A stretch of 64,000 nucleotides of DNA, from NCBI GenBank assembly GCA_949290705.1, contig CASESI010000013.1:76755-140754 (forward strand), read 5' to 3'. A program made the translations under genes and the position numbers. The notes under the pieces are model-generated. The model ran no database searches. It was given only the letters and a program-made list of their open reading frames with translations, and had not been told where the DNA came from. The stretch is from an uncultured Holosporaceae bacterium. GTDB taxonomy: Bacteria; Pseudomonadota; Alphaproteobacteria; UBA3830; CASESI01. Below, piece after piece: positions 3,663 through 63,181 of the stretch (the first letter of the stretch is position 1; each line of letters starts with the position of its first letter).

Positions 3663-3665
3663 ATA

Positions 3666-17994: not shown

Positions 17995-17995
17995 C

Positions 17996-36759: not shown

Positions 36760-38349
36760 TTAATTTTGTATAAGCTTCATAAGAACTCTTGCACTATCTT
36801 TTACTTTCATGACAGCTTCTGAACTAATATTTTCCAATACCTCAACTTGCATTAAATCAATTGTTTCATCTTGTACATCTATGTCTTCAATATTACTGAC
36901 TATATAATTAATATTATTTGTAGATAAATTATTTAAATATTCTATGTTTGCAACCTGAGCAAGCATATCTGAAATTGCGGACTTATTATTTGATATATCA
37001 TCAAGTACTCCATCTATCAGTCCTATTATTACATCTTTGTTATACTGCATAAAAAGATCTTCATCAAAATCTCCTCCACTTTCACCAGTATCCAATGCAA
37101 ATAATTTATATTTATCATCATCTAAAACATTAGGTAATTTCTTAAGTAATTGGTCCATATATAAATTTGTTTGATAAAGATAAAGTTTTCTATTTTCAAG
37201 CAATCCAGTCATCACTATTTCATCTCTAACCACTAAGTCATTATCAGGATTTTTATTAAAATACCCTATTAATGCTTCATCACCAAATGTAGTTGAAGAT
37301 ATGACATTTTTTATTGATTTAACTCTTAACATTATTTCATCTTTCAAACTATTCCTAACAGATTCTTTATCCAAATTTTGTTGACCGTTGGATGCTTCGA
37401 CAACCAATGTTCGCAATGATTTCATATCACTTTCTATAATTTCCTCGGCATTGTACAAAGTATCCATCATGGAATTATAATACTCAACTTGCCTATTAGA
37501 CCTTTTTTTATCCTCCAAAATCATTTTCACACTTTTATTATTGAAAAAAACTGTTGTTTCAGATACTGTTTCCAATTGGTTCTCTTGATCGATAATAAGT
37601 TGTTTTGCAGCTTCTATACCTTCTTTCGCATCATTAAATTGATTCCTTACTTCACCTGTAATCCTTTGCATATAATCAAGAACCCGTGACGAATACCTCA
37701 TTGTACCAACATGGTTTATTTTATTCTGATAACTATTAGTTTCTGATCCAAAATTCCCTGGTCTAACATATCTGATATGATTAAGTTTTAAGTACTTGTG
37801 TGCAACATTATTCCACTCTGGTAATATAATAGATATATTTTTATTATATACTCCATCTACTTTAAAACTAAATGTCTGTCGCTTATATCTATTGTTAACT
37901 CGTGGAGTAACTCTTCTGAAATTATTAGAGTATTCTTTTGACGTCAATAAATTATTAACTTCATCAATAATGCCAGGAGCTTTTGTATTATAATTTGTCC
38001 AATGCCCAGGTGTTTTTGCACTAACAGTTGGTATATTGGCAGCAATTGCATTACTCCAACCTAAATTCCATAATTCTTTGTATTTTTCATGCATGTTTGT
38101 CAATACACCTATTATATCATCAAGTTGTTTAATATCTTTATCGATTTTGGCTATCGTATTGTTTTCATCAGCTGTTGTCCCTTGTAATATTGTACTTTTA
38201 GATTCAGTTATAAAAACAGAATCTTTAATCTTCTGACCGGTTTTTCCACTTGCCAAACGTTCAAGAATTTCGCCTTTTTGAATACCATGCGTACGATTAC
38301 TAGTGGTAATTGACGTTACACTTCTTGTACCTATACCTCCTGTAATCAT
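36760..38349 (-). CDS. Flagellin-family protein, short-class paralog 5 (529 aa, enlarged)
   Basis: N-terminal ...KGEILERLASGKTG.KIKDS... and C-terminal IEDIDVQDETIDLMQVEVLENISSEAVMKVKDSARVLMKLIQN are shared with the four genes upstream. Internal SLRTLVVEASNGQQNLDKESVRNSLKDEIMLRVKSIKNVISSTTFGDEALIG resembles a canonical flagellin ND1 segment. Confidence 0.65.
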   Translation of the reverse strand: MITGGIGTRSVTSITTSNRTHGIQKGEILERLASGKTGQKIKDSVFITESKSTILQGTTADENNTIAKIDKDIKQLDDIIGVLTNMHEKYKELWNLGWSNAIAANIPTVSAKTPGHWTNYNTKAPGIIDEVNNLLTSKEYSNNFRRVTPRVNNRYKRQTFSFKVDGVYNKNISIILPEWNNVAHKYLKLNHIRYVRPGNFGSETNSYQNKINHVGTMRYSSRVLDYMQRITGEVRNQFNDAKEGIEAAKQLIIDQENQLETVSETTVFFNNKSVKMILEDKKRSNRQVEYYNSMMDTLYNAEEIIESDMKSLRTLVVEASNGQQNLDKESVRNSLKDEIMLRVKSIKNVISSTTFGDEALIGYFNKNPDNDLVVRDEIVMTGLLENRKLYLYQTNLYMDQLLKKLPNVLDDDKYKLFALDTGESGGDFDEDLFMQYNKDVIIGLIDGVLDDISNNKSAISDMLAQVANIEYLNNLSTNNINYIVSNIEDIDVQDETIDLMQVEVLENISSEAVMKVKDSARVLMKLIQN

Positions 38350-38361
38350 AATTCACCTCTT

Positions 38362-39546
38362 TTATGATTGAATCAACCTTACTATGTATTTTGAACTTTC
38401 TTTTATCTTCACAAGAGCCTCTGAGCTTAACTGTTCCAAAATTTCTTCATTCATCAAATTCATCATCTCTTCCTGCACGTCTGTATCTTCAATAGAGCTC
38501 AATGCAGCTTGAATATTATTCTTTTGAATTGTTAACAATGTTTCAGAATTATCTATGTTCGTTATAGCAGATAGTTCAGCCTGATAATTATTCGCTACAT
38601 TATCAATCGTTGCCGAAATCGCAGCAAGAATATTTGTTCTTGATAAACTATTTTCTCTTACAAAGTCACGAATGGCTTTTACAACATCATTTTTATCACC
38701 ACCAGCCTTAACATTCGTAATAATACCATCTAATTTGTTCTTTAGTTGCGTATCATTCACTGCAGTTTGTGCAGCAGTTTTAGCTTCATTCAAGTCTTGT
38801 GCTTCAGCTGCACCCTTAATTGCGTCTTGGATTTTTTCCATATCAGCATCGGAAATTACGGAAGAATCTTTACTTGCAAATAACTTATACAAATCATCAT
38901 TAGAAAATAAATTTTTTAAATCCGATGTTCCGCCATCGTACCTATTTTCTGTATCATCGTACGTACCACTATAAGCCGTAATATTACTTGCAAAATCTAT
39001 ATTCTTAACAGTTATGTCAAAATCATCATGTGGACTCATTGAAAAGTGTATTGTTTTTGTTAGATTTAAATCATCATTTAACCTATCAGTTTTTTGGAAT
39101 GTTTTTTCCCCAAGGAAATCTGTATTATTTATTGTACTTTCTATCGTATTTATTATAACATTTATCTCCTCTTGTAGAGCTTGCCTGGTTGATTTACCTC
39201 TTATATACTCTTGATCTGTATTTCCGCCATTAATTTTAAAATCTGTCGCAATATCATTAATTTTTGTTTTCAAACTTTCATATTTTTCGCGCAATAACTG
39301 CGTTGTTTCAAGAGCTATTTCCATCCTACTGGAATATTTTGAAATATTTTTAAACAGGTTGTTATACTGACTTATAGAAGTTTTCAGTGTAGAAATATTT
39401 CTAAATTCAGATATACCATCTCTTGGGTGGTTATAATTCTTTCCTGAAGCCAATTTTGTTAATGTCTCTCCTTTCGATTTTGCATTATTTTTATTGCTCT
39501 TCATAATAGAGTTTTGCGATCTGATGCTTACGAATGATATAGCCAT
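38362..39546 (-). CDS. Flagellin-family protein, short-class paralog 4 (394 aa)
   Basis: MAISFVSIRSQNSIM...KGETLTKLASGKNYNHPRDGISEF... aligns to flagellin ND0/ND1. C-terminal IEDTDVQEEMMNLMNEEILEQLSSEALVKIKESSKYIVRLIQS aligns to CD0. GGAGG RBS. Confidence 0.75.
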   Translation of the reverse strand: MAISFVSIRSQNSIMKSNKNNAKSKGETLTKLASGKNYNHPRDGISEFRNISTLKTSISQYNNLFKNISKYSSRMEIALETTQLLREKYESLKTKINDIATDFKINGGNTDQEYIRGKSTRQALQEEINVIINTIESTINNTDFLGEKTFQKTDRLNDDLNLTKTIHFSMSPHDDFDITVKNIDFASNITAYSGTYDDTENRYDGGTSDLKNLFSNDDLYKLFASKDSSVISDADMEKIQDAIKGAAEAQDLNEAKTAAQTAVNDTQLKNKLDGIITNVKAGGDKNDVVKAIRDFVRENSLSRTNILAAISATIDNVANNYQAELSAITNIDNSETLLTIQKNNIQAALSSIEDTDVQEEMMNLMNEEILEQLSSEALVKIKESSKYIVRLIQS

Positions 39547-39582
39547 TTTCTGTTCCTCCTTGTATTTTCATCTTTCATATTA

Positions 39583-40527
39583 CTAATTTTGTACCAACCT
39601 TATTACAAATCTGGCGCTGTCCTTAATTGCCTTTAATGCCTCTGCGCTGAGCTCCTCCAAAATCTGCGCCTGCATCAAATTTACCATTTCTTCTTGAATA
39701 TCAACATCTTCCATAGCGCTTATCGCAGCTTCTGTATTAGCTTTTTTAACATATGATAAATCTTCCATATTACTCAAAGTTTCTATATTGCTGAGTAAAA
39801 TATTATAGTTATTGTACGCCGTCCTTGCCGCCGTTGTTAATGCATCATAAAGTGTAGATTTTTTCATGTGATTTGCAGTTGTACCAGAAAAAGTATTATA
39901 ATTACCTAATTCTCCAGTAGGAGGGGTAGTACCAGCTGCATCGGCTCTATACACCAACTTTTTCAAATTATCCTCCGTAACATTTGTTGTTGTACCAACT
40001 GCAAGTGCGGCCAATGACACATCAAGCTTAACACCATCTCTCTCTGAAATTATCAACTCTATTTTTGTTCCATCTGCATTCACAACATTTTTACCATCAA
40101 GTTTTGTATTAAGTAAATTCTTAATTGCGTCAATAGAGACATTTACGTCATTCTGTAATTGTTGCCTTAATATTTTATTGAATTTCTCTGTATCAGTAGG
40201 AGTTGCAGACCAGCCGCCGATATTAGTTGGTATATCATTAATCTTTATTGCAAGTTTTGTATATTGTTCATAAACCAAATCAACCACAGAAAGCGCCGTC
40301 TCTAATCTACTTTTCGCAAGCTTTATATTTTTAGTAGTTTTTTCATATTCATTCAAATCCTTCCGCATCCTTTGAATGCGTGAAAATTCTTCTATTCCAT
40401 CGCTTGAGTTAAATATTTTCTTTCCAGTAGACAATCGTTTCAACACAGCACCTTTATTCCTTGCGACATTCCGCGAAGTTTGCATTATATTAAGTTGGTC
40501 TCTGATTGGTATAAATGATATAGCCAT
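39583..40527 (-). CDS. Flagellin-family protein, short-class paralog 3 (314 aa)
   Basis: MAISFIPIRDQLNIM...KGAVLKRLSTGKKIFNSSDGIEEF... at the N-terminus. C-terminal MEDVDIQEEMVNLMQAQILEELSAEALKAIKDSARFVIRLVQN. GGAGG RBS. Confidence 0.75.
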   Translation of the reverse strand: MAISFIPIRDQLNIMQTSRNVARNKGAVLKRLSTGKKIFNSSDGIEEFSRIQRMRKDLNEYEKTTKNIKLAKSRLETALSVVDLVYEQYTKLAIKINDIPTNIGGWSATPTDTEKFNKILRQQLQNDVNVSIDAIKNLLNTKLDGKNVVNADGTKIELIISERDGVKLDVSLAALAVGTTTNVTEDNLKKLVYRADAAGTTPPTGELGNYNTFSGTTANHMKKSTLYDALTTAARTAYNNYNILLSNIETLSNMEDLSYVKKANTEAAISAMEDVDIQEEMVNLMQAQILEELSAEALKAIKDSARFVIRLVQN

Positions 40528-40799
40528 CTTTTCCTCCCTGTTTTTAAACCTTAACTACATAAACTACGCCCTTATCAAATTCACAATATATTTCGAACTT
40601 TCTTTAATCTTAATCAAAGCTTCTGAGCTGAGTTCCTCCAGAATCTGCGCCTGCATCAGATTTATCATTTCCTCTTGAACATCAATATCCTCCAAAGCAC
40701 TTATTGCTGCCTCGGTGTTGGTTTTCTGTACCTGCGCCAAAGTGTCAATGTTCGACAAATTCGTAATACCGGAAAGTATTAATCGATAGTTATTGTCTG
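40494..40799. repeat. Tandem repeat copy A: 5' codons of a flagellin gene + intergenic + 3' end of the next flagellin gene
   Basis: Direct comparison with 41538-41842. The 3' coding stretch 40564-40799 vs 41607-41842 differs at about a dozen positions by eye. The intergenic CCATCTTTTCCTCCCTGTTTT(T)AAACCTTAACTACATAAACTACGCCC differs by one T. Confidence 0.85.
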
Positions 40800-41571
40800 T
40801 CTTTGATTTATTTTCTGTAACGTTGTGAATGAAAACATCTATTTGCTTAAATTGACCCTTCCATGGATCTGTTCCACTTGATAAAACTAACTCTACAGTT
40901 TTAATTGTGTTCGCTGCACCAATTGTACTTAATGGTAACAAAGGGCTTTCTGTTACACTAACTGTACCATAATCATTAAGTGCAAATGAAAGGCTACTAT
41001 TTGTTTGATAATTAAAACTTGCAGGCGGGGTGAAAGTTTTTTCTTTCCATTTTTTATTAGTAGCGTCAACTTCTTGTACTTTACTATTTAACATTATATT
41101 TTGCTCTTGTAGGAAGTCAGATTTTCCATTTGTTCTTGTCCCCATCTCAAAAGCAACGGCACTCCCATCAAATTTGGTTTGCAATGTACTATTAATCGTA
41201 TTAATCGTCGCGTTGATTTCCGCTGTGTAATACGCATCATCAGCTGACCCTGCAGGCAATGTTGTAAGGCTTTTAACTTCATTTAATTGCTTTAACAAAG
41301 TATCATATTGTTCACCCAAGGATTGCTGAACCGAAAGCGCAGTCTCAAGTTGGCTTATCCCAAGTGAAACATCCTTTATTGCTCTTGCATACGAATCAAG
41401 GGATGTACGCATATTTGAAATCTTTCTGTAATCCGCAACATCATCTCTTGGATCGGCAACCTTTTTTCCCGTCGCAAGTCTTTTCAAAACTTGTCCCTTG
41501 TTCTCCGCACTTGACCTGTTTCCTGTGATCACTCTTGCTTGGTCTCTGACCGGTATAAATGATATAGCCAT
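40564..41571 (-). CDS. Flagellin-family protein, short-class paralog 2 (335 aa)
   Basis: MAISFIPVRDQARVITGNRSSAENKGQVLKRLATGKKVADPRDDVADYRKISNMRTSL...LGISQLETAL aligns to flagellin ...ERLSSGLRINSAKDDAAG...GIS.AQT.EGAL. C-terminal LEDIDVQEEMINLMQAQILEELSSEALIKIKESSKYIVNLIRA. Confidence 0.8.
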   Translation of the reverse strand: MAISFIPVRDQARVITGNRSSAENKGQVLKRLATGKKVADPRDDVADYRKISNMRTSLDSYARAIKDVSLGISQLETALSVQQSLGEQYDTLLKQLNEVKSLTTLPAGSADDAYYTAEINATINTINSTLQTKFDGSAVAFEMGTRTNGKSDFLQEQNIMLNSKVQEVDATNKKWKEKTFTPPASFNYQTNSSLSFALNDYGTVSVTESPLLPLSTIGAANTIKTVELVLSSGTDPWKGQFKQIDVFIHNVTENKSKTDNNYRLILSGITNLSNIDTLAQVQKTNTEAAISALEDIDVQEEMINLMQAQILEELSSEALIKIKESSKYIVNLIRA

Positions 41572-41842
41572 CTTTTCCTCCCTGTTTTAAACCTTAACTA
41601 CATAAACTACGCCCTTATCAAATTCACAATATATTTCGAACTTTCTTTAATCTTAATCAACGCTTCTGAGCTGAGTTCCTCCAGAATCTGCGCCTGCATC
41701 AGATTTATCATTTCCTCTTGGACATCGATATCCTCCAAAGCACTTATCGCAGCCTCGGTGTTGGTTTTTTGCACCTGCGCCAAAGTGTCAATATTCGACA
41801 AATTCGTAATACCGGAAAGTATTAACCGATAATTGTTGTCTG
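41538..41842. repeat. Tandem repeat copy B (partner of 40494-40799)
   Basis: See copy A. In addition, 41393-41571 and 42253-42431 (the 5' coding ends of the two genes) are highly similar. Confidence 0.85.
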
Positions 41843-42431
41843 CTTTCGTCACGTTACCTGTTGCATGAACTATTGCATTGCCCTCTACAGCAGTTTTTAA
41901 ATCATTCCAAGCGGTATACGTATAAAACTCATTAAATTGAGTCGTTGTGACAGTTGTATCATTGTAATCCTTAATTTTCACTGTTAATACTTGATTACCT
42001 GGGGTTGCCGCGCTAGACACAACAGTTTCATTATTAAATTTTGTGGCAAGAGTACTATTAATTGCAGCAATTGTGCCATTAACACTATTTAAATAATAGG
42101 TTTGATTGGTATTTGTTGTATTTTTATTTTCTTTGGCTTCTTCAAGCTGTTTTCCAAGTGTTGTATACAACTCCATCAAACTCTGTGTTACGGAAAGCGC
42201 TGTTTCAAATTTGCTTATTCCGAACGAAACTTCTTTTATCGCATTTTTATATGAATCAAGCGATGTACGCATGTTCGAAATCTTTCTATAATCCGCAACA
42301 TCATCTCTTGGATCGGCAACCTTTTTTCCCGTCGCAAGTCTTTTCAAAACACGACCTTTATTTTCCGCACTTGATCTGTTTCCTGCGATCACTCTTGCTT
42401 GGTCTCTGACCGGTATAAATGATATAGCCAT
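41607..42431 (-). CDS. Flagellin-family protein, short-class paralog 1 (274 aa)
   Basis: N- and C-terminal regions are nearly identical to the 335-aa paralog but the central region differs. Start taken at MAISF (ATG 42429-42431), since the GGAGG RBS lies within the 4 extra codons of the track ORF. Confidence 0.8.
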   Translation of the reverse strand: MAISFIPVRDQARVIAGNRSSAENKGRVLKRLATGKKVADPRDDVADYRKISNMRTSLDSYKNAIKEVSFGISKFETALSVTQSLMELYTTLGKQLEEAKENKNTTNTNQTYYLNSVNGTIAAINSTLATKFNNETVVSSAATPGNQVLTVKIKDYNDTTVTTTQFNEFYTYTAWNDLKTAVEGNAIVHATGNVTKADNNYRLILSGITNLSNIDTLAQVQKTNTEAAISALEDIDVQEEMINLMQAQILEELSSEALIKIKESSKYIVNLIRA

Positions 42432-42511
42432 CTTTTCCTCCATGTTTTAAGCTATCTTCTAATACTAGAAAAAAAACAAAACTACAGAGAAAAAACACTA
42501 CAAATGAAAAA

Positions 42512-45034
42512 CTAAAATAATTTTAATAAATTTTGTTTTGCCTTAAGTTCACGTGAAAGTGATTCTATTGCAGCAGATTGTTGTAATTCGAATTGCGACA
42601 AATTCACCATTTCTGAAGGAATATCCAAATCGAATATCGCACTTGCAGCCAATTGTGCATTTTTTACAGTATTTGCAAGGTTATCTATTGTCTTTTCAAC
42701 ACGATTTTGTGCAACCGCAATGTCAGCAACCCTCATAAGAACAGCTTCCAATATTCCATCAAGACGGTCTTTTGTTCTAGGGACATTATCCCTGGTTTTA
42801 ATTTCAAAATCATCCTTATCCATTCCTAACCTTGCAGAAGTCACGGCTTCAATCCTGACAGAAATCCTATCAAAATCCTCTTCCGAAGCACCAACCTTGA
42901 AAACCAAATCTATGCTGTCCGAATGATTTGCAAATGTAATAGATGTATTTTTCAGTTCATTCAGTGTAATAACTTTCGTATTATCAGGAATTTTTTTCAT
43001 AGCATCTTTGTAAGATATGGTACTATTTTCCGAAATTTCAATTTTCATTACAAGTGTATCTATTCTATCTACACCCTTCTTATTGAAATGTCTTTTGAAT
43101 GTTATTTCGTGTATTCCTTGACCAAGTCTCTTCTCAGCCAACCCATCATCATCTTTTAATGTATAATCATGTTCATTGTTAGTTATATTGTAATCAAACT
43201 CTGACTCAAACCTACTTCCATCTTCAGCCTCTAGGTATAATTTTGATTTACCAAAAGTTCCTGACATCTTTACGTCAAAAGACTTTAAATCTGTAAGATT
43301 TCCACTCAAAGAAGTAATATATGGTGATGGAACTTGAATATTTTTCATTTTCACTTTCACATCAGATTGATTTTGCAATCTTACTGTCTTTCCTTTTTCG
43401 TACACATACCCGTCCCCATCAACATCATATTTATTATTAAATTCTGTAAGATTTGTTGTTATAAGAGTCGATACTTCATCTTTCCTGGTTATTGCACCAT
43501 TTTTCGGCTTATAAACCATATTGTTGCGGTCAAGTTCAATATCACTACTAATAGTAAATTGTGCATTAACAGCAGCGCCTGTTCCACCACTTGTTTGTAA
43601 TTTATTTACATGTGCTGTATCAGATTTATCATATACATATCCGTCTTTATCCAGAATATGTTGTACAGGATCAAATGTAAATGTTCCACTTGTAGCATCA
43701 CCTACTATTCTATTAGCGCCATTTTTAAGCGTATACGAAGATTTATCTAAATCCTCCTCAACCTCTATCTTAATTTCAACACCATTATTCGCTTGATACC
43801 TAACATTTCCAGTAGACGTACCATTTTCACCATCACCTTTCAGGTATACATATCCATCATTTGCAACATAAAATTTACCATCTGGCTTTAATGTATCCGT
43901 GGTATTCATAATTTGATACGAACCATCTATATTCTGCACAGGAACCACTTTTCTTTCATTATTTACCATACGGATCGTAATACCATTTCCATCATCATTT
44001 AACTTATTGATGTATTTATTATTTCCTGTATCCCAAGTTAATAATTTTCCAGTATCATAATCTATGTAATCAGGGTGATTAGGAGTTGTATTTAAATCTA
44101 AACCGTATACACCACCGTCTGCTCCAAGATATTTTCCTGTTTTTTCATCAGTTAATGGTTCTCTCAAAATCATTGGATTTATAGAAAATTTGCCATTCGC
44201 AGAATTAATATCATAATTAACATTCAATAAAGCATTATTTTCGTTTGTCTGTGAAAGTTTATCTGCATACTTCATACCAAAGCTTTTTGTTTTATCAAAA
44301 TATGAGTTCAGCGATATATTGAGTTTCATTTGATGGAATCTGTACTTTTCCGTTTTTCCATCTTCTATATCCTTTTCATCAAGAACAACATATTCAGATT
44401 CTCCTGTATTAACACTTATAGCTGTTAACTTTTTCGTTTCGGCATCATATTCAAATCTTGTACCACCTGAAACTGAATCACTGTCAAAAGTAATATTTTG
44501 TATTCCTCCTCCAAATGTGCGTTCACTACTTAAAAAACCTTCTCTCAATGATACATCATCCGGATCAGCCGGATCAATTTCACCAAATTTATCACTTTCT
44601 ATAGTAATACTTCCAGACAACAAATGCATGTTGTTGAATTCCGTAGTTTTTGCAATTCTATCTATTTCATCACGTGAATCGAGAAACTCCTTATTAATTT
44701 TTTCTCTATCACTATCTGACAATTGCTCTCCTGCAGCTTGTTCAGCAAGTGTACGCATTCTTGTAATCAACGCTGTAATACTTGATAATGCGGAATCAGC
44801 GACATCAAGTGTAGAATTTATTTGAGTCGAAGAGATTAATACCTGGTTTATAGACTGCATCTTCATCTTTAACTTCGTTCCGATTGCAGCATCAGCAACA
44901 GCATCAGAGGCCTTTTCAACACGCAAGGCAGAAGATATTTTTCTCAACGAATCCGATCTTCTTACTTCTGACAACCCTATGTGCTTAATAGAGCTTATCG
45001 ATCCTCTTCCCTCTGAAAATCCTACATTTCTCAT
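42512..45034 (-). CDS. Giant flagellin (840 aa)
   Basis: The canonical N-domain is LRKISSALRVEKASDAVADAAIGTKLKMKMQSINQ...DVADSALSSITALITRMRTLAEQAAGEQLSDSDREKINKEFLDSRDEIDRIAKTTEFNNMHLLSG. The C-domain is ...VAQNRVEKTIDNLANTVKNAQLAASAIFDLDIPSEMVNLSQFELQQSAAIESLSRELKAKQNLLKLF. A large central insert lies between them. AGAGG RBS. Confidence 0.85.
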   Translation of the reverse strand: MRNVGFSEGRGSISSIKHIGLSEVRRSDSLRKISSALRVEKASDAVADAAIGTKLKMKMQSINQVLISSTQINSTLDVADSALSSITALITRMRTLAEQAAGEQLSDSDREKINKEFLDSRDEIDRIAKTTEFNNMHLLSGSITIESDKFGEIDPADPDDVSLREGFLSSERTFGGGIQNITFDSDSVSGGTRFEYDAETKKLTAISVNTGESEYVVLDEKDIEDGKTEKYRFHQMKLNISLNSYFDKTKSFGMKYADKLSQTNENNALLNVNYDINSANGKFSINPMILREPLTDEKTGKYLGADGGVYGLDLNTTPNHPDYIDYDTGKLLTWDTGNNKYINKLNDDGNGITIRMVNNERKVVPVQNIDGSYQIMNTTDTLKPDGKFYVANDGYVYLKGDGENGTSTGNVRYQANNGVEIKIEVEEDLDKSSYTLKNGANRIVGDATSGTFTFDPVQHILDKDGYVYDKSDTAHVNKLQTSGGTGAAVNAQFTISSDIELDRNNMVYKPKNGAITRKDEVSTLITTNLTEFNNKYDVDGDGYVYEKGKTVRLQNQSDVKVKMKNIQVPSPYITSLSGNLTDLKSFDVKMSGTFGKSKLYLEAEDGSRFESEFDYNITNNEHDYTLKDDDGLAEKRLGQGIHEITFKRHFNKKGVDRIDTLVMKIEISENSTISYKDAMKKIPDNTKVITLNELKNTSITFANHSDSIDLVFKVGASEEDFDRISVRIEAVTSARLGMDKDDFEIKTRDNVPRTKDRLDGILEAVLMRVADIAVAQNRVEKTIDNLANTVKNAQLAASAIFDLDIPSEMVNLSQFELQQSAAIESLSRELKAKQNLLKLF

Positions 45035-45060
45035 TTCTTGTTACCTCTTTTTGTATTCAT

Positions 45061-45076
45061 TGCAATTTACGTGCCA
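45061..45076 (-). promoter_or_regulatory. Sigma54 (-24/-12) promoter of the 840-aa flagellin gene
   Basis: The minus strand reads TGGCAC-GTAAA-TTGCA, an exact match to the TGGCAC-N5-TTGCW consensus. The -12 element lies about 27 nt upstream of the ATG, leaving room for a short leader with the AGAGG RBS. Confidence 0.75.
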
Positions 45077-45182
45077 AACTTACACTAAATTACTAATTTT
45101 TTTAACTTTCATAAACATATCCTAAAACTAGTAAATCTTTTATTAACATTGCAAAAAAAATAATAAAAATACAAAAATAAAA

Positions 45183-47621
45183 CTAAAACAACTTTAATAA
45201 GTTTTGTTTAGACCTCATTTCACGAGACAAAACCTCAATTGACGATTGCTCCATCATTTCACTTTGAGAAAGTTCAACCATTTCTTCTGGAATATCAAGG
45301 TCGAATATAGCACTTACAGCTGCCTGCGAGTTAGTGATTGATGTCTGAATATTAGAGTCAGCAACATTAAGTCTGTTATCTCCAACAGCAACTTTCGAAC
45401 GCACTGATTGTACTGTATCAATAGCTGTTCTTATTGTCTCTATTATCTTTTGCAATGATTCTTGATCATCACTGAGTTCTACTTTTAAATTTGTTTTATT
45501 ATCTACCAATTGTAATCTAAATGCGGTAATAGAATCTATTGTAACTTTAACAGAGTTCTCATCTCCACCTCCTGTTCCAACTTGGAAAGATAAGTCCGTC
45601 TTATCACTTGATTCTTGATACGCAACAACGGTATTCTTAAGCTCATTCAATGATACAAATACATTATTGTTAAAATATCCTGAATCTACAAATGGATTTG
45701 TACCAGCCGCGTCAGCAGCCATCTGCCCTACATTTGCCATAGCCAGGTTTTTTGGAGCATCTGCATCTGTCAATTTGGCAGCTTCTATTATTCCGCCAGT
45801 TTTCATTTTATTCAAATCAATTGTGATAGCATCAACTCTTTGGCCGTTTGTCATTGTCCTCGATAACGTTACACGTCCTCTTTCAAGTCGATTTTTCGCT
45901 ACATAAGAACTAGTATTCTCGTTGTAATCTATATCTGTAAGATTAAAATAATCCGATTCTAAAACTCCATCTGCAGCCTCCATATATAATTTAGCCATAC
46001 CATTTGTTCCTTTTATCTTTACATCAAAAGAAGTCAAATCTGTTAAATTACCAGAAATTCTAGCAACATCAACATTATTAGTTTTTTTATTATTTAATTT
46101 CAATTGAACTGTAGAATTAGGATCACCGTCTATTGTTGTAATTTTTTTGCCTGACTTGTCATAGACATACCCATCGTCACCTATAATATCTGTGCTTTTT
46201 AATTTGTACGATCCACCTTTTAGCACAACTGCATTTCCGTCAACATCTTTTTCAATTGATTGTTTATCATAATCGATTCCAAATGTTCCATTTTCATACG
46301 TAGCCGCATCCAGTTTAAATGTACCTGTTATTGTAACCTCAACACCGTTTGCATCACCATTTCCATTAAGACTAGATGCAGCTTCAAATGTCACTATTCC
46401 ATCTTTTGAATAATCTGTAATTTTAAATAATTTCAAATCATTCAATTGTGTTACTGTATCAGCACCAGCAATACTAGCTTTAACTTTTATTTCAGTAATA
46501 GTAACTCCTTGCCCACCTAACTCATTATTAAATGCCTCCAACTCAGTTGTTGAAAAAATATCACCGTTTGCTTTGCCCGCTATTCCTATAGATTTACCAG
46601 GAACTCCTAATCCAAGTGCTAATTTAATATCATTTAAAGCTGTCCTACCATCTGCTGTATTATTATCTATTGAGTCTGTTGTGTTCGTAGGAAGAATAAT
46701 CTCAGTTCCTCTTGCATCACCATCAACTTTAACTTTTCCAGCCGTAAGTTTTGGTTTAAACAACTCTTCTCCAATTACAGAAGCATTATCAATCAACTTA
46801 TCACTAATAGAATTTATAAGTTCAATATTTTTCTTGTTATTTTGATTGTATTGTGGATCCATCATTAATGCCGTATCTGTTCCAATTGACATCCCCTTAT
46901 CAAAATTATTATTTAATTTTACAGTAATACCAAATTTACTGAAATTTAAACTTTCCAAATCTCCAGATTTAATGTCATCTGATGCAACTTTCATTTCATC
47001 AAAACTCGACCTGTCATTAAGGTTTGTTATTCTGAACAATCTTGTTTCTTGATTATAACTTAAAGTATACGCCGTATTGGACTTTGAATTATCAATTGCG
47101 ATTGCCTCAATACCTTGTCCATCTTTTGATAAAAATCCATCCCTTAAATCATCCCCATTAATAGTTTCTGAAAATGTATCTGTAATAACTTTTTGTGTAC
47201 CTGATAATAACTGTTTTGAGTTAAAGTTTGTAGCTTTTGCTATACGATCAATTTCATCTATTAAAGCTACGAACTCTTGGTTAATTTTTGCAATATCTTC
47301 AGCTTTGTAAATTCCATTTTTTGCAGACATTGCAAGTGTATTCATACGGGTTAATGTTTTCGTAATTTCCCCCAAACCACCCTCGGCAATATCCAATGCC
47401 GCCTTTGCCTGAGCAGTTCCAACTAATAATTGTTTTAAAGAATCAACTTCAACTTTTAATTTCGTACCAATAGCAGAATCAGCAACAGCATCTGAAGCTT
47501 TCCTAATTTTTAATGATGATGATATTTTAGAAATCGAAGTCGTTCTCGTAGTTTCCGACTTTTGAATCTGGGTCAACGTATTTAACGCACCAGTTCCTTT
47601 TGAAAATGATATAATAGCCAT
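45183..47621 (-). CDS. Giant flagellin (812 aa)
   Basis: The N-domain is MAIISFSKGTGALNT...ISKISSSLKIRKASDAVADSAIGTKLKVEVDSLKQ...IAEGGLGEITKTLTRMNTLAMSAKNGIYKAEDIAKINQEFVALIDEIDRIAKATNFNSKQLLSG. The C-terminus is AIFDLDIPEEMVELSQSEMMEQSSIEVLSREMRSKQNLLKLF. GGAGG RBS. Confidence 0.85.
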   Translation of the reverse strand: MAIISFSKGTGALNTLTQIQKSETTRTTSISKISSSLKIRKASDAVADSAIGTKLKVEVDSLKQLLVGTAQAKAALDIAEGGLGEITKTLTRMNTLAMSAKNGIYKAEDIAKINQEFVALIDEIDRIAKATNFNSKQLLSGTQKVITDTFSETINGDDLRDGFLSKDGQGIEAIAIDNSKSNTAYTLSYNQETRLFRITNLNDRSSFDEMKVASDDIKSGDLESLNFSKFGITVKLNNNFDKGMSIGTDTALMMDPQYNQNNKKNIELINSISDKLIDNASVIGEELFKPKLTAGKVKVDGDARGTEIILPTNTTDSIDNNTADGRTALNDIKLALGLGVPGKSIGIAGKANGDIFSTTELEAFNNELGGQGVTITEIKVKASIAGADTVTQLNDLKLFKITDYSKDGIVTFEAASSLNGNGDANGVEVTITGTFKLDAATYENGTFGIDYDKQSIEKDVDGNAVVLKGGSYKLKSTDIIGDDGYVYDKSGKKITTIDGDPNSTVQLKLNNKKTNNVDVARISGNLTDLTSFDVKIKGTNGMAKLYMEAADGVLESDYFNLTDIDYNENTSSYVAKNRLERGRVTLSRTMTNGQRVDAITIDLNKMKTGGIIEAAKLTDADAPKNLAMANVGQMAADAAGTNPFVDSGYFNNNVFVSLNELKNTVVAYQESSDKTDLSFQVGTGGGDENSVKVTIDSITAFRLQLVDNKTNLKVELSDDQESLQKIIETIRTAIDTVQSVRSKVAVGDNRLNVADSNIQTSITNSQAAVSAIFDLDIPEEMVELSQSEMMEQSSIEVLSREMRSKQNLLKLF

Positions 47622-47808
47622 AATTTTCCTCCATGTAAATTAAATAACAGCAAAATAACCGCTAATAAAAATTCGGAAAAACTATGAAACAACAAGAATA
47701 ACATGTGAAGATTTTTACAAATCTCCAAACTCTAGATATCATAATAGCAAATAAAGGTAAAAAATGAATTAATTAAAATAAATATTTTTAGATAAATTTG
47801 GATATTTT

Positions 47809-48615
47809 TTATATTCCTAAAGATTTTATTCTGTATTCTAATAATTTTTGTTCCTTTTCATTTTGTGCTTTTAATTCCTCTCTGCACTTTTCTATATGCT
47901 CATTCCATAATTTCTGCGCTGTTTCTTGATCAGAAGCAATTATATTATTTATCAAAGCTCGTGAACTTATTTCAAAATGCATAAAATCCATAGGCTGCCT
48001 CCAATAACCTCCCCACCTGTTGAATCCATATTTTTTAAAGATTTTTGCATGAAATTCGTTTGTCATTCCTGGTCTATGCACTAATCGGTTGACAAAAGCA
48101 TCATCACTTTCTTTTTCCTGCATAATATATTTTTGCACAAATAATTCCATTTTATCACTTGGAATCGTAGTGGTACATTCCAATAAATCTTCTGCAATGT
48201 CATCAATTGCCATTCCCCTCATATCGGGAGTCATTTTGTTATTAATGATATCGGCATGAGGATTCATATAATAATTAACATCAATCGCTGCACCATATGC
48301 ATGTTTAGAAAGAGTGTTTGTTCCTGCTATATTCCTACCGTTGTAACAACTTGTACAATATATCGGAAGCTCATCCACTCCCTCTAGCAATGATAATTCT
48401 TCAAAAATACTTTTGACACTATCAACAGATGTGTCCAACACACGTATTTTTAAAGTTGAAAATTTTGCTTCTTGTATACCTTCAAAATTACGTACAGGAA
48501 TTTCAACATCAACTATTTTATGCTCGCCTAAACTTGTTACATAAGCCTTGTTATCACATCTAAAGCTGCATACCACAAGCATTAAATGTAAAAAAATTAT
48601 ATTAAAAAATTTCAT
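47809..48615 (-). CDS. M15-family (VanY/LAS-type) peptidoglycan metallopeptidase with signal peptide
   Basis: LSKHAYGAAIDVN (SxHxxGxAxD) and ...PMDFMHFEIS (DxMHFE) are typical of zinc D-Ala-D-Ala carboxypeptidase-like M15 enzymes. Start taken at MKFFNIIFLHLMLVVC (ATG 48613-48615). Confidence 0.7.
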   Translation of the reverse strand: MKFFNIIFLHLMLVVCSFRCDNKAYVTSLGEHKIVDVEIPVRNFEGIQEAKFSTLKIRVLDTSVDSVKSIFEELSLLEGVDELPIYCTSCYNGRNIAGTNTLSKHAYGAAIDVNYYMNPHADIINNKMTPDMRGMAIDDIAEDLLECTTTIPSDKMELFVQKYIMQEKESDDAFVNRLVHRPGMTNEFHAKIFKKYGFNRWGGYWRQPMDFMHFEISSRALINNIIASDQETAQKLWNEHIEKCREELKAQNEKEQKLLEYRIKSLGI

Positions 48616-48680
48616 ATATCGTTTCTCATTACATATAATACTATACATAACAACCAGAAAAATATCAATACAAAACACAA

Positions 48681-48868: not shown

Positions 48869-50191
48869 ATGTCATTAGAAAACCTATTGAAGAAAATTCC
48901 ATACAGCGTACAATGGCACGATGGAATGCTTTTATCAAGCCAACATTTCCAAACTTTTGACCATTACCATAATTCTTTATGCACGCTAATTGGCAGGTGT
49001 GCTAATTCTTTCGATTACGGAATATTAAGATTAAAAATAGATGAATCAGCTTTGGTATCAGGAACAATTATAATTAATGAAATCCTAGGAATTCTTGATG
49101 ACGGTACAATTTTAAATTACAATTCTGAATATGAAAATTACAAACTTGAATATAATATTTCGGAACACATAAAAAATATTAACAAAACTAAAATATATTT
49201 ATGTGTGTTAAAACATACACATGGAAATAATAACTTTGAACAAAATCTTCCAAGATATTTCTCGATATTGAATGAGGATATCAAAGATGAAAATACAGGA
49301 GAAAATCCAATTAATATTCCTTCCAAAAAACCAAAATTTCTATTAATGTCAGAAAGTGAACTATCTGATAAATTCTCATACCTTCCATTGATAGAAATCA
49401 CTAAAAAAGATAACGTTTTATCTAAAACTGACTTTATCTCTCCTTATATTAAATTAACTAACGAGTGTCCTTTATATGAACTTTTATCTAATATTGTGAA
49501 ATCATCTAAACAAAAAATAGGGTATATTTTAAGTAAAAAAAACCTAGCCAAAGATAATTATATAATAGACTCCGCATTAAGGATATTAGTTGCTTATTCT
49601 ATAACGATAGAATCGTTGTTAAATACTCAATTCATATCGCCATTTGAAATTTACAAAGTAACTCTTGAATTTGCAGCACAGCTATTAGGATTTTCAGTAT
49701 CAAACATCGTTCCTATATTACCAAGTTATAATCATCTAGATAGTATGAATTGCTTTAAAAAATTAGAAGAACACATAGATAAATCCTTGAACCAAATTAT
49801 TGAATTTTCTTCAGCAATACCATTCATATTAGAAGAAAATATATTTAAATTAAAGCTTATAAAAGACTGGGATTCAAAGAAAGAACTTATTATAGGAATA
49901 AAAAGATCTGATAAATCCACTCAAGATGAATTTATTACATGGGTAAATGGTGCTCAGATAGTTTCAGAATCAATGATAGACGATATCAAACAAAAACGTG
50001 TACTTGGTGCAAATAGGAATGCGGTCAGTTCGTATGATTTAGGATTTGAGAATATTCAAGAGAATCTCATTGTATTAAAAATAACAACTGACTCGCATTA
50101 TATAAAGTTTGGAGAAAATCTATGCATATTTAATAGCTCTTTTACAATTTTACCAGATGAAATAGTGTTTTTCCAAAAAGAAAGTACATGA
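48869..50191 (+). CDS. tssK: T6SS baseplate protein TssK (ImpJ/VasE)
   Basis: The N-terminus IPYSVQWHDGMLLSSQHFQTFDHYH matches the TssK signature (V.W.EGM.L.PQHFQQ.DRY). 440 aa. Followed by tssL-tssM. Confidence 0.85.
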   Translation: MSLENLLKKIPYSVQWHDGMLLSSQHFQTFDHYHNSLCTLIGRCANSFDYGILRLKIDESALVSGTIIINEILGILDDGTILNYNSEYENYKLEYNISEHIKNINKTKIYLCVLKHTHGNNNFEQNLPRYFSILNEDIKDENTGENPINIPSKKPKFLLMSESELSDKFSYLPLIEITKKDNVLSKTDFISPYIKLTNECPLYELLSNIVKSSKQKIGYILSKKNLAKDNYIIDSALRILVAYSITIESLLNTQFISPFEIYKVTLEFAAQLLGFSVSNIVPILPSYNHLDSMNCFKKLEEHIDKSLNQIIEFSSAIPFILEENIFKLKLIKDWDSKKELIIGIKRSDKSTQDEFITWVNGAQIVSESMIDDIKQKRVLGANRNAVSSYDLGFENIQENLIVLKITTDSHYIKFGENLCIFNSSFTILPDEIVFFQKEST

Positions 50192-50199
50192 GGTGTTAA

Positions 50200-50937
50200 A
50201 TGGAATTTTTAAATTACTCGACTTCTGATATTTTTGATAACTTTATAGAGATTTTAAGTGAACAAAAATCCATAGCTATAAAATCTAATGATAATAATGC
50301 TGAAATAATTGCATCACAAATAATAAAAAAATTATCTGATTTCATCAGCTCAATTAATTACTCCCTTAATCAAGACAATTTAAACTTAAACAATAACTCA
50401 CTATATGATTTGGAATATGCCCTTGTTGCATTATCTGACGAAGTATTTTTAAACCTCCAATGGAAGGGTAATGAATTCTGGAAAGCCAACTTACTTGAAA
50501 CTAAATTTTCAAAAACTCAATCAGCAGGCGACACTATTTTTGATAAGATCGATACGATACTAAATCGTAAAAATTTCTTATCCGTAGAAAATGCAATTAT
50601 TTATCTAAAATTATTAGCATTGGGATTTCAAGGAAAATATAGAAACACAAATTCATATCAAAAAATTAATGACTATAAACATAAATTATATCTTTTTATT
50701 ACCTCTAATACATCTGGAATAAATCCAGGCGATATGATATTCCCGGATGGGTACAAATATACACTAACTGGACTACCCAAGATTTTTACTCCTAATGAAT
50801 ACTCAATAGATCACATCTTCTATACAATAATTGTATTATTCGTAATTGGAACAGGAATTTTTTGGGAATATGAACATATAAAATTACAAGAAGTAATAAA
50901 CCTCTTAGATTCGACAAATGGTGATAAAAATGAGTAG
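50200..50937 (+). CDS. tssL: T6SS membrane complex protein TssL (DotU/ImpK family)
   Basis: DotU-like core: YALVALSDEVFLNLQWKGNEFWKANLLETKF...IIYLKLLALGFQGKYRN. Single C-terminal TM (IFYTIIVLFVIGTGIFW). GAGG RBS. Confidence 0.8.
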   Translation: MEFLNYSTSDIFDNFIEILSEQKSIAIKSNDNNAEIIASQIIKKLSDFISSINYSLNQDNLNLNNNSLYDLEYALVALSDEVFLNLQWKGNEFWKANLLETKFSKTQSAGDTIFDKIDTILNRKNFLSVENAIIYLKLLALGFQGKYRNTNSYQKINDYKHKLYLFITSNTSGINPGDMIFPDGYKYTLTGLPKIFTPNEYSIDHIFYTIIVLFVIGTGIFWEYEHIKLQEVINLLDSTNGDKNE

Positions 50938-63180: not shown

Positions 63181-63181
63181 G

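What the first reader, a model, noticed from the sequence alone, without database searches (positions are those of the whole stretch)
42512..47621. Two tandem giant flagellins (840 and 812 aa) with large central inserts carrying a recurring DGYVY-x-K motif
- Typical flagellins have roughly 130-170 residues of conserved N-domain and 90-100 residues of C-domain. Here the conserved ends bracket several hundred residues of additional sequence.
- The 840-aa protein contains NDGYVYLKGDG, DKDGYVYDKSD and DGDGYVYEKGK. The 812-aa protein contains DDGYVYDKSGK. This suggests a repeated small module.
- Both share the block (I/L)SGNLTDL(T/K)SFDVK(I/M).G..G..KLY(M/L)EA.DG and homologous segments just after ND1.
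- Elsewhere the inserts differ; the 812-aa insert has G/T/A/N-rich beta-like stretches.
- Giant flagellins forming thick filaments, and flagellins with enzymatic inserts, are known from a few gamma-proteobacteria and others. I do not recognise this insert architecture.
Basis: partly seen in the sequence, partly recalled or inferred. Interest (0 to 1): 0.75.

Follow-up and report, generated by a model that had tools for sequence, protein, structure and literature searches.

The report
Two large flagellins with unfamiliar outer domains
Two neighbouring genes encode unusually large flagellins (flagellar filament proteins) whose roughly 530-residue surface-exposed part matches no catalogued domain and sits at an unusual point in the conserved core; this is a rare new variant of a well-known protein, not a new kind of system.

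Summary
Window 42512-45034(-) and 45183-47621(-) encode 840-aa (A) and 812-aa (B) proteins. Both have Pfam Flagellin_N and Flagellin_C ends and 520-550 residues in between with no Pfam, NCBIfam or PDB sequence match. DGYVY occurs three times in A and once in B. It is conserved in orthologues of 55-60% identity and recurs more than chance allows.

- **Layout.** Both proteins read N-core, module M1, variable middle, DGYVY hairpin plus module M3, D1 beta-hairpin, C-core. The insert therefore lies before the D1 beta-hairpin, not after it as in Salmonella FliC or Bacillus Hag.
- **Shared modules.** M1 also occurs in about 40 other protein clusters, including other flagellins, FliD caps and RTX proteins. 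M3 also occurs in a secreted non-flagellin protein.
- **Differing middles.** The middle regions of A and B are unrelated. A's holds two further DGYVY units, two of the three being a real ~70-aa duplication. B's is an alpha/beta domain where dN is at least dS between close strains.
- **Regulation and context.** A has a perfect, conserved sigma-54 promoter. Five smaller flagellin-like paralogues follow on the same strand.
- **Rarity.** The full architecture is rare: 6 representatives at E<=1e-30 among 1.84 billion.

Verdict: real flagellins and a new variant of a known kind. They are "large" rather than "giant" (the literature cut-off is >1000 aa). Interest is moderate.

The parts
45183..47621 (-). 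B812: 812-aa large flagellin (B-type)
   Evidence: ORF. Pfam Flagellin_N covers residues 12-143 and Flagellin_C covers 728-812. An identical protein, P0006, lies on a 148-kb metagenome/NCBI contig.
42512..45034 (-). A840: 840-aa large flagellin (A-type)
   Evidence: ORF. Pfam Flagellin_N covers residues 27-143 and Flagellin_C covers 768-840. Orthologues P0001-P0004 are 55-99% identical.
44600..45034 (-). A840 residues 1-145: ND0, ND1a and ND1b helices
   Evidence: Pfam and PDB flagellin alignments. AF2 predicts helices 20-102 and 107-139.
44282..44536 (-). A840 module M1 (residues 167-251), a beta domain directly after ND1b
   Evidence: Conserved between A and B. pLDDT is ~70-77. The same module is found in ~40 other clusters, including FliD and RTX proteins.
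43490..44281 (-). A840 variable middle region (residues 252-515), with DGYVY units 365-440 and 441-515
   Evidence: hhalign S1-S2 gives probability 93%. No counterpart exists in B. AF2 confidence is low.
43844..43858 (-). DGYVY copy 1 (A residues 393-397)
   Evidence: Conserved in orthologues.
43631..43645 (-). DGYVY copy 2 (A residues 464-468)
43400..43414 (-). DGYVY copy 3 (A residues 541-545), the hairpin that opens module M3
   Evidence: G542, V544 and Y545 are invariant across the A and B families.
43025..43489 (-). A840 hairpin plus module M3 (residues 516-670)
   Evidence: Orthologous to B residues 471-610 (hhalign 95.6% and 97.7%). pLDDT is 60-68 for residues 590-660.
42827..42964 (-). 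A840 'NELKNT' motif plus D1 beta-hairpin (residues 691-736), located after the insert
   Evidence: Sequence LVFKVGASEEDFDRISVRIEAVTSARL. The homologous B segment aligns with the Hag and FlaB hairpin.
42512..42793 (-). A840 CD1 and CD0 helices (residues 748-840) and stop codon
   Evidence: Pfam Flagellin_C. AF2 predicts helices 748-801 and 807-839.
47187..47621 (-). B812 residues 1-145: ND0, ND1a and ND1b
46887..47135 (-). B812 module M1 (residues 163-245)
   Evidence: pLDDT is ~74-82.
46287..46769 (-). B812 middle alpha/beta domain (residues 285-445), B-type specific and variable between strains
   Evidence: pLDDT is 85-93. Against strain L001, dN is 0.05-0.27 and at least equal to dS. It is unrelated to A's middle region.
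45807..46211 (-). B812 DGYVY hairpin (46161-46175) plus module M3 (residues 471-605)
   Evidence: It is 32% identical to the non-flagellin protein P0044 over 147 residues.
45651..45806 (-). B812 variable linker (residues 606-657); the 951-975-aa relatives carry about 150 extra residues here
   Evidence: Alignment columns 730-900. pLDDT is below 50. dS is 0.3-0.6 against strain L001.
45513..45650 (-). B812 'NELKNT' motif plus D1 beta-hairpin (residues 658-703), after the insert
   Evidence: B812 with residues 147-664 deleted aligns end to end with B. subtilis Hag (5wjx, query 10-293 to chain 7-302) and Leptospira FlaB (9lrz). In that alignment DLSFQVGTGGGDENSVKV lies on NLVFQIGANATQQISVNI.
45183..45464 (-). 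B812 CD1 and CD0 (residues 720-812) and stop codon
45062..45076 (-). Sigma-54-type -24/-12 promoter element TGGCACgtaaaTTGC, 27 nt upstream of the A840 start codon
   Evidence: It is the only perfect match in the 64-kb window on either strand. It lies at the same offset before every A-type gene fetched, including L010 and L011, whose proteins are only 55-60% identical.
45099..45159 (-). Conserved ~60-nt block upstream of the sigma-54 element; a possible activator or IHF binding region (inferred)
   Evidence: Nearly invariant between the window and L010/L011, although the coding sequences have diverged to 55-60% aa identity.
47622..47666 (-). 45-nt leader immediately upstream of the B812 start codon
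   Evidence: The last 43 nt before the start codon are 100% identical between the window, L001 and the distant L010/L011.
36760..42443 (-). Five further flagellin-superfamily paralogues on the same strand: 278, 335, 314, 394 and 529 aa
   Evidence: The four smaller ones give weak Pfam Flagellin_N/C hits. The 529-aa protein has flagellin-like termini. Intergenic gaps are 12-68 nt.

Best explanation
B812 and A840 are paralogous structural flagellins of an uncultured bacterium with about 30% G+C.

**How they most likely work**
- The N-terminal ~145 and C-terminal ~95 residues form the conserved D0/D1 helices that polymerise into the filament core. (Shown by homology.)
- The ~520-550 residues in between form several beta-rich outer domains that project from the filament surface and should give a thick, decorated filament. 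(Inferred.)

**Where the insert sits**
- The outer region lies in the loop between helix ND1b and the D1 beta-hairpin. (Shown by alignment.)
- The canonical gap between the hairpin and CD1 stays short, as it is in Bacillus Hag.

**How the outer region is built**
- It is modular: M1, then a lineage-specific middle, then a DGYVY beta-hairpin plus M3.
- M1 and M3 are conserved and probably form the inner layer next to the core. (Inferred.)
- The middle is the outermost, fast-changing part. In A it is built from DGYVY-containing ~70-aa units. In B it is an alpha/beta domain that diversifies between strains. (The dN/dS result is shown; its surface position is inferred.)

**Regulation and partners**
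- The A gene is transcribed from its own sigma-54 promoter. (Sequence evidence only, but strong.)
- Together with five smaller paralogues downstream, the two proteins probably build a filament made of several flagellins. (Inferred.)
For: - **Core identity.** Pfam N and C domains score well above their cut-offs. The best NCBIfam and PDB matches are all flagellins. Foldseek with the B model returns only flagellar proteins; the best is the 793-aa Geovibrio flagellin 9au6 at E 2e-12.
- **Topology.** B812 with residues 147-664 deleted aligns in a single stretch with the minimal flagellins Hag and FlaB, hairpin on hairpin. AF2 places strands 674-680 and 690-696 just before CD1. The canonical order is hairpin, then loop or D2/D3, then CD1 (PMC5643327).
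- **Modules.** A profile search of 1.84 billion representatives found 46 hits. The full architecture occurs in about 6 clusters and M1 alone in about 40. M3 also occurs in P0044.
- **Repeats.**
- **Selection.** Against a close strain, A has dN/dS 0.09. B has 0.73 overall, with dN at least equal to dS across residues 271-450.
- **Promoter.**
- **Conserved synteny.** The B-A-small-paralogue order recurs in relatives.
- **Another flagellar gene.** An FlhF-like gene lies in the window.
Against: - No filament, motility or expression data exist; the organism is known only from metagenomes.
- No flagellar basal-body, hook or export gene lies in the 64-kb window. The FlhF-like hit is below NCBIfam's cut-off (52.9 bits against 174).
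- The A model is unreliable (pLDDT 47). M3 and the linkers of B are also predicted with low confidence. The domain packing (M1 and M3 inner, middle outer) is therefore inference.
- The dN/dS result rests on a single pair of strains.
- Both scans of GTDB representative genomes found no relative, so the host's taxonomy is only hinted at by a partial alphaproteobacterial-type AddB hit.
Confidence: 0.75

Rival explanations
1. The two proteins are flagellin-derived secreted or surface proteins, such as adhesins, that use flagellin termini for export but are not major filament subunits. The cell-surface 'flagellin homologue' of Sphingomonas would be a precedent.
For: - Their modules also occur in non-filament proteins: M1 in RTX proteins and FliD caps, M3 in a signal-peptide protein.
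- One M1 member weakly hits Pfam pAdhesive_11 (E 4e-4).
- No other flagellar structural genes lie in the window.
- Five smaller paralogues could supply the filament itself.
Against: - A and B have by far the most canonical D0/D1 sequences in the locus: 74-82 bits for Flagellin_N, against 23-27 bits for the small paralogues.
- Complete D0 ends and the D1 hairpin are retained.
- Large flagellins of similar size do form filaments (9au6; PMC11532411).
Confidence: 0.1
2. They are hook-filament junction or cap-type proteins (FlgL-like or HAP-like) rather than flagellins.
For: NCBIfam FlgL models give weak hits: TIGR02550 at 41 and 46.6 bits. M1 also occurs in FliD proteins.
Against: - The FlgL scores are far below the cut-off of 127.2 bits.
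- Flagellin models score much better (E 1e-28 to 1e-33).
- Pfam Flagellin_C is clearly present.
- Two diversifying tandem copies fit a filament surface protein better than a junction protein.
Confidence: 0.04
3. The insert is an enzyme displayed on the filament, as in flagellinolysin.
For: The insert is large enough. NCBIfam flagella_HExxH gives a hit.
Against: - That hit covers only D1 residues 113-144/164, which is not the protease domain.
- There is no HExxH in either protein.
- No enzyme family is found in Pfam even at E<=10.
- There is no cysteine at all, and the predicted folds are beta-rich.
Confidence: 0.03
4. The DGYVY recurrence is chance or a composition effect and has no structural meaning.
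For: Outside the motif, copy 3 shows no detectable similarity to copies 1 and 2.
Against: - Only 10 of 20,000 shuffles give any 5-mer three times.
- All sites are conserved in orthologues of 55-60% identity. The last site is conserved across A, B and more distant flagellins, and in P0044 as DGFVY.
- Units 1 and 2 remain similar after the motif columns are removed.
Confidence: 0.02

Closest known systems
Geovibrio thiophilus flagellin (PDB 9au6, 793 aa, outer domains D2-D5; Fields et al. 2024, PMC11532411)
   Same: - It is a large flagellin of similar length with several beta-rich outer domains that give a 240-Angstrom filament.
- It is the best Foldseek hit (E 2e-12) and the best PDB sequence hit for the core.
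- Its genome also holds several similar flagellin genes.
   Different: - There is no sequence similarity in the outer region.
- TM-score is only 0.24, so the match is driven by the helical core.
- In 9au6 a hairpin-like segment follows ND1b directly, whereas here the hairpin comes after the insert.
Giant flagellins of Bermanella marisrubri and Oleibacter marinus (Thomson et al. 2018, PMC6248924)
   Same: The central region is greatly expanded, has no enzyme similarity and is expected to thicken the filament.
   Different: - Those proteins exceed 1000 aa, while these have 812 and 840.
- They come from gammaproteobacteria.
- No sequence relationship in the insert was detected in any search.
Minimal flagellins: Bacillus subtilis Hag (5wjx) and Leptospira FlaB (9lrz)
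   Same: With the insert removed, B812 aligns with them end to end. The link between the hairpin and CD1 is equally short (PMC5643327).
   Different: These proteins have no outer domains. The window's proteins carry about 520-550 residues between ND1b and the hairpin.
Salmonella FliC and E. coli FliC (1ucu, 8cxm): the canonical D0-D3 architecture
   Same: The D0/D1 core and a surface-exposed variable region.
   Different: In FliC the outer domains D2/D3 are inserted after the D1 hairpin, and the FliC hairpin aligns with the construct directly after ND1b (8cxm residues 11-181). Here they are inserted before it. The outer folds are unrelated by sequence.
Multi-flagellin, sigma-54-controlled flagellin loci such as that of Caulobacter crescentus (my own background knowledge; PMC10369909 for the six flagellins)
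   Same: Several tandem flagellin paralogues, and a -24/-12 promoter in front of a flagellin gene with conserved upstream DNA.
   Different: Caulobacter flagellins are small and lack outer domains. Whether rpoN and an activator exist in this genome could not be tested.

Membership tests
Bacterial flagellin (FliC/FlaA; Pfam PF00669 + PF00700) | N-terminal D0/D1 helical region above Pfam's gathering score | tested here: met
   74.4 bits (A) and 81.9 bits (B) against a cut-off of 26.6.
Bacterial flagellin (FliC/FlaA; Pfam PF00669 + PF00700) | C-terminal D1/D0 helical region above the gathering score | tested here: met
   40.7 and 45.4 bits against a cut-off of 23.
Bacterial flagellin (FliC/FlaA; Pfam PF00669 + PF00700) | D1 beta-hairpin (the 'FQVGan...' segment) is present | tested here: met
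   B residues 675-703 align with the hairpins of Hag and FlaB. AF2 predicts strands 674-680 and 690-696.
Bacterial flagellin (FliC/FlaA; Pfam PF00669 + PF00700) | Export by the flagellar type III system and assembly into a filament | not testable with these tools
   This needs proteomics or microscopy of the organism.
Bacterial flagellin (FliC/FlaA; Pfam PF00669 + PF00700) | The genome encodes a flagellar apparatus | tested here: inconclusive
   Only an FlhF-like gene, below the NCBIfam cut-off (52.9 bits against 174), and further flagellin paralogues lie in the window. The rest of the genome was not available.
Canonical FliC-type domain order (outer domains between the D1 hairpin and CD1) | The variable or outer region follows the D1 beta-hairpin | tested here: not met
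   The insert (B residues 147-657) precedes the hairpin, and the hairpin-CD1 link is only about 17 residues. The canonical order is given in PMC5643327.
Giant flagellins sensu Thomson et al. 2018 | Length greater than 1000 amino acids | tested here: not met
   812 and 840 aa. The definition is in PMC6248924. Relatives reach 951-975 aa.
Giant flagellins sensu Thomson et al. 2018 | Filaments thicker than canonical ones | not testable with these tools
   This needs electron microscopy.
Flagellinolysin (proteolytic flagellin, NF033876) | HExxH zinc-metalloprotease domain within the variable region | tested here: not met
   There is no HExxH. NF033876 matches only D1 residues 113-144/164, at about 30 bits against a cut-off of 205.
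FlgL / hook-associated protein 3 (TIGR02550) | Score above the model's trusted cut-off | tested here: not met
   41 and 46.6 bits against 127.2.
Known short beta-hairpin repeat families (Rhs/YD, cell-wall-binding repeats, EF-hand/DxDxDG loops), considered for DGYVY-x-K | A significant match to the family profile | tested here: not met
   No such Pfam family appears at E<=10, apart from EF-hand_1 at E 0.29 on DVDGDGYVYEKG, which is not significant.

The most novel reading that the evidence does not exclude
These proteins represent an undescribed topological class of flagellins.
- The outer domains are inserted into the loop between ND1b and the D1 beta-hairpin.
- A conserved pair of 'adaptor' modules, M1 and M3, frames an exchangeable outermost domain.
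- The adaptor modules are traded with FliD caps, RTX proteins and secreted proteins.
- The DGYVY hairpin unit would be a new small fold, possibly metal-binding or adhesive, that tiles the filament surface.
Probability: 0.3. Interest if true: 0.6.

Novelty: new variant of a known kind. Interest (0 to 1): 0.45.

Why it matters
- **Diversity is expected.** Flagellin outer domains are already known to be very diverse: 682 structural clusters in PMC11532411. One more unmatched outer region is therefore not surprising in itself.
- **What is worth keeping: the anatomy.**
  - The insertion point lies before the D1 hairpin. This shows the filament core tolerates large domains at a second site, which is useful for flagellin display engineering and for automated trimming of D0/D1 in structure surveys.
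  - Two conserved framing modules are shared with cap proteins and RTX proteins.
  - In a tandem pair, one copy is conserved and sigma-54-driven, while the other diversifies at its outermost domain. That pattern suggests selection by phages, predators or a host.
- **Limit.** Nothing here opens a long-standing question.

Tried and rejected
- **Genome scans.** Two scans of GTDB representative genomes, one with the flagellin family and one with TopA, found no relatives. Cluster look-ups returned no names.
- **Structure prediction.** AF2 of A840 with 14 sequences gave pLDDT 47, too poor to test the repeat fold. I therefore did not run Foldseek on it.
- **Fold search.** Foldseek with the B model against the PDB was dominated by the helical core (TM about 0.2). 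It could not classify single outer domains, because the tool takes whole models only. Foldseek against viral structures found nothing at E<=1e-3.
- **Sequence and profile searches.**
  - Profiles of the whole insert and of M1 against the PDB found nothing significant.
  - Pfam on each module at E<=10 gave only noise.
  - Self-BLAST of the inserts found no internal repeats. Only profile-profile comparison did.
- **Sigma-54 motif before B.** It is absent: in AGCGGTTATTTTGC the GG and GC elements are separated by 7 nt instead of 10.
- **Link to the neighbouring T6SS genes.** I rejected it as unsupported. The genes lie on the opposite strand and are separated by a tRNA and a peptidase gene.
- **Third large flagellin in the same genome?** Unresolved. 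The 951-aa relative lies in the same assembly, but G+C is 0.34 against 0.30 and tetranucleotide r is 0.98, the same as for a different species.
Full report

Yes. ORFs of 840 aa (42512-45034, minus strand; here 'A') and 812 aa (45183-47621, minus strand; 'B') are present. Both start at ATG behind good ribosome-binding sites.

Pfam finds Flagellin_N and Flagellin_C, well above their gathering scores, only at the two ends of each protein. Nothing is found in between. NCBIfam and PDB sequence searches return only flagellins, again matching only residues ~10-150 and the last ~90.

DGYVY sits at A residues 393, 464 and 541 and at B residue 483. Neither protein has HExxH. In 20,000 shuffles of A, some 5-mer recurred three times in only 10. 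All three sites are kept in orthologues that are only 55-60% identical. A and B are paralogues, 32-36% identical along their whole length, and the SGNLTDL.SFDVK...KLY.EA.DG block is among the columns invariant across the family.

**2. How rare is it?**

- Word-indexed searches of 5.8 billion proteins with each insert found only about 20 proteins. All have flagellin ends, all come from metagenomes and none carries a name.
- They fall into three groups: A-type (828-840 aa), B-type (800-818 aa) and long B-type (951-975 aa).
- An exhaustive HMMER profile search of 1.84 billion cluster representatives gave 46 hits at E<=1e-3 and only 6 at E<=1e-30.
- The tandem order B-then-A, followed by smaller flagellin genes and flanked by an M15 peptidase gene and T6SS tssK/tssL/tssM, is conserved in a close strain (L001) and in a more distant species (L010/L011).

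**3. Anatomy**

*(a) Core and insertion point.* When residues 147-664 of B are deleted, the remaining 294 residues align in one uninterrupted stretch with minimal flagellins. These are B. subtilis Hag (5wjx, query 10-293 to chain 7-302) and Leptospira FlaB (9lrz). In that alignment DLSFQVGTGGGDENSVKVTIDSITAFRLQL lies on the Hag hairpin NLVFQIGANATQQISVNIEDMGADALGI.

The D1 beta-hairpin therefore lies after the insert. AF2 agrees: strands 674-680 and 690-696 come shortly before the CD1 helix, which starts at residue 720. In canonical flagellins the order is ND1b, hairpin, then a loop or D2/D3, then CD1 (PMC5643327). E. coli K-12 FliC aligns its hairpin directly after ND1b (8cxm residues 11-181).

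Here the hairpin-CD1 link is as short as in Hag, and the whole outer region sits in the loop between ND1b and the hairpin. Every other M1-containing flagellin I inspected has the same order. No PDB flagellin showed it. I did not find this point discussed in the two structural papers I read, but I cannot claim it has never been noted.

*(b) Module M1* (A residues 167-251, B residues 163-245) is a beta domain predicted with pLDDT ~70-82. It is the most widespread part. An HMM of it finds 80 copies among the proteins collected here. These include other flagellins of 510-880 aa, two very long FliD cap proteins, and RTX-repeat proteins that carry two copies. An M1 profile has no significant Pfam or PDB match.

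*(c) Middle region.* The middles of A (252-515) and B (246-470) are unrelated by profile-profile comparison.
- B's is an alpha/beta domain (285-445), predicted confidently at pLDDT 85-93.
- A's is predicted poorly. It contains two ~70-75-aa units (365-440 and 441-515), each centred on a DGYVY.
- hhalign relates these two units at 93% probability, with a score of 38 against a maximum of 22 in 60 column shuffles. The relation survives deletion of the five motif columns (P 5e-4).

*(d) Hairpin plus M3* (A residues 516-670, B residues 471-605). The last DGYVY of A and the only one in B open this module, which is the most conserved part of the insert. It is retained, as DG[YKN]V, in more distant large flagellins. 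It also occurs in 550-aa flagellins that have only M1 and M3. A 460-aa protein with a signal peptide and no flagellin ends (P0044) carries it too, at 32% identity over 147 residues and with the motif DGFVYNHDGK.

So DGYVY marks a beta-hairpin motif. In context it reads, for example, YVANDGYVYLKG, ILDKDGYVYDKS and DVDGDGYVYEKG. It has been duplicated twice more in the A lineage. Copy 3 resembles copies 1 and 2 only in the motif itself.

*(e) Variable linker.* A linker follows M3 (B residues 606-657). The long B-type proteins carry about 150 extra residues at this position.

**4. Selection and regulation**

I compared the window with the close strain L001. Background values there are dS 0.02-0.07, and dN/dS 0.07-0.31 in the T6SS genes.
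- A has dN/dS 0.09.
- B has dN/dS 0.73 overall. The changes concentrate in residues 271-450, where dN is 0.05-0.27 and at least equal to dS. This is the confidently folded middle domain.
- A second patch at residues 571-690 has dS 0.3-0.6, which looks like imported sequence.

This pattern is what one expects of the outermost surface of a filament. It rests on one pair of strains.

The only perfect TGGCAC-N5-TTGC in the window, on either strand, lies 27 nt upstream of the A start codon. It is found at the same offset before every A-type gene fetched, including the 55-60%-identity species. A nearly invariant ~60-nt block lies upstream of it. I read this as a sigma-54 promoter with an activator or IHF region; the binding role is inferred.

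B has no such element. The last 43 nt before its start codon are identical across these species, which suggests a regulatory leader of unknown function.

**5. Context**

- The window is chromosomal and has about 30% G+C. It carries Tad-pilus, T6SS, PHB, DNA-repair and tRNA genes.
- A partial hit to the alphaproteobacterial AddB model hints at the lineage. Both scans of GTDB representative genomes found no relative.
- Downstream of A, on the same strand and with gaps of 12-68 nt, lie five more flagellin-superfamily genes of 278, 335, 314, 394 and 529 aa. They form a separate, much more divergent clade.
- An FlhF-like gene, scoring below its cut-off, lies at 56664-57569.

**6. Interpretation**

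The best-supported reading is that A and B are true filament subunits whose outer region forms a multi-domain coat. M1 and M3 would lie next to the core, with the lineage-specific middle outermost. A would be sigma-54-controlled and conserved, and B antigenically or functionally variable.

The homology of the core, the insertion point, the module distribution, the repeat relationship, the promoter motif and the dN/dS pattern are shown. The packing of the modules, filament thickness, multi-flagellin assembly and any adhesive or metal-binding role of the DGYVY hairpin are inferred. For the last of these, the EF-hand-like match at E 0.29 is not significant.

The rival readings are all weaker, for the reasons listed under rival explanations:
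- a non-filament adhesin;
- a junction or cap protein;
- an enzyme displayed on the filament;
- a chance motif.

**7. Comparison and novelty**

The closest solved relative is the 793-aa Geovibrio thiophilus flagellin (9au6). It resembles these proteins in size and in its beta-rich, multi-domain build, but it shares no outer-domain sequence and shows the usual hairpin position.

The 'giant flagellins' of Thomson et al. are defined as longer than 1000 aa, so the label does not strictly apply. A recent survey already counts 682 structural clusters of outer domains. A new, unmatched outer region is therefore a new variant of a known kind.

The points that raise it above routine are the non-canonical insertion site, the M1/M3 framing modules shared with FliD and RTX proteins, and the conserved/diversifying tandem pair. 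Interest: 0.45.

Noticed in passing
window 36760-42443 (-): Five further flagellin-superfamily genes (278, 335, 314, 394 and 529 aa) follow A840 with gaps of 12-68 nt. They form a divergent clade, only 12-26% identical to A and B over the N-terminal 110 aa. The 529-aa protein has no Pfam hit but has flagellin-like termini.
   Followed up: partly
window 40564-42443 (-): The 278-aa and 335-aa paralogues share 98% identity over their last 80 residues and 77% over the first 110, but differ in the middle. This suggests gene conversion or a recent duplication. In strain L001 the 335-aa gene is replaced by a 300-aa allele of only 57% identity.
   Followed up: partly
window 47622-47666 (-): The leader before the B812 start codon is conserved, the last 43 nt being 100% identical across species whose proteins are about 56% identical in the insert. 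It may be a translational-control element. No sigma-54 motif is present there.
   Followed up: partly
window 47809-48678 (-): This M15_4 peptidase gene next to B812 is only 69% identical in protein between the window and strain L001 (dN/dS 0.88), while neighbouring genes are 98-99% identical. The GTG start of the 289-aa ORF is probably too far upstream, since related contigs-279 aa.
   Followed up: partly
window 56664-57569 (+): A 301-aa GTPase with a sub-threshold match to FlhF (TIGR03499, E 5e-14, 52.9 bits against a cut-off of 174). Apart from the flagellin paralogues, it is the only flagellum-related gene in the window.
   Followed up: no
window 22774-25124 (+) and 48869-54940 (+): The T6SS genes are split into two clusters: tssB/tssC, and tssK/tssL(DotU)/tssM(IcmF-like, 1340 aa). 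The TssB homologue is unusually long: 303 aa, with the family domain in residues 18-171.
   Followed up: no
L012 1001-3856 and L006 5583-8438: A 951-aa long B-type flagellin lies alone between holC (DNA polymerase III chi) and ssb/gyrA. It sits on scaffold_1 of the same ENA assembly (ERZ16268146) that holds the window's contig (scaffold_118). It could be a third large flagellin of the same genome or belong to a co-occurring relative. Composition does not decide (G+C 0.34 against 0.30).
   Followed up: partly
protein P0044 (460 aa; from the representative library, no locus): A non-flagellin protein with a signal-peptide-like N-terminus carries the DGFVY hairpin plus M3 module (32% identity to B812 residues 471-614). 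The module is therefore mobile between flagellins and other secreted proteins.
   Followed up: partly
window 375-4181 (-), 16966-18874 (+), 62065-63949 (-): Tad/Flp-pilus genes (CpaD, secretin, CpaB, prepilin peptidase, TadB/C-like, TadA-like ATPase) are scattered in three places in the window.
   Followed up: no
window 18871-21315 (-): An 814-aa PD-(D/E)XK protein partially matches the alphaproteobacterial AddB model (TIGR02786, E 3e-33, below the cut-off). It is the only taxonomic hint obtained for the host.
   Followed up: no
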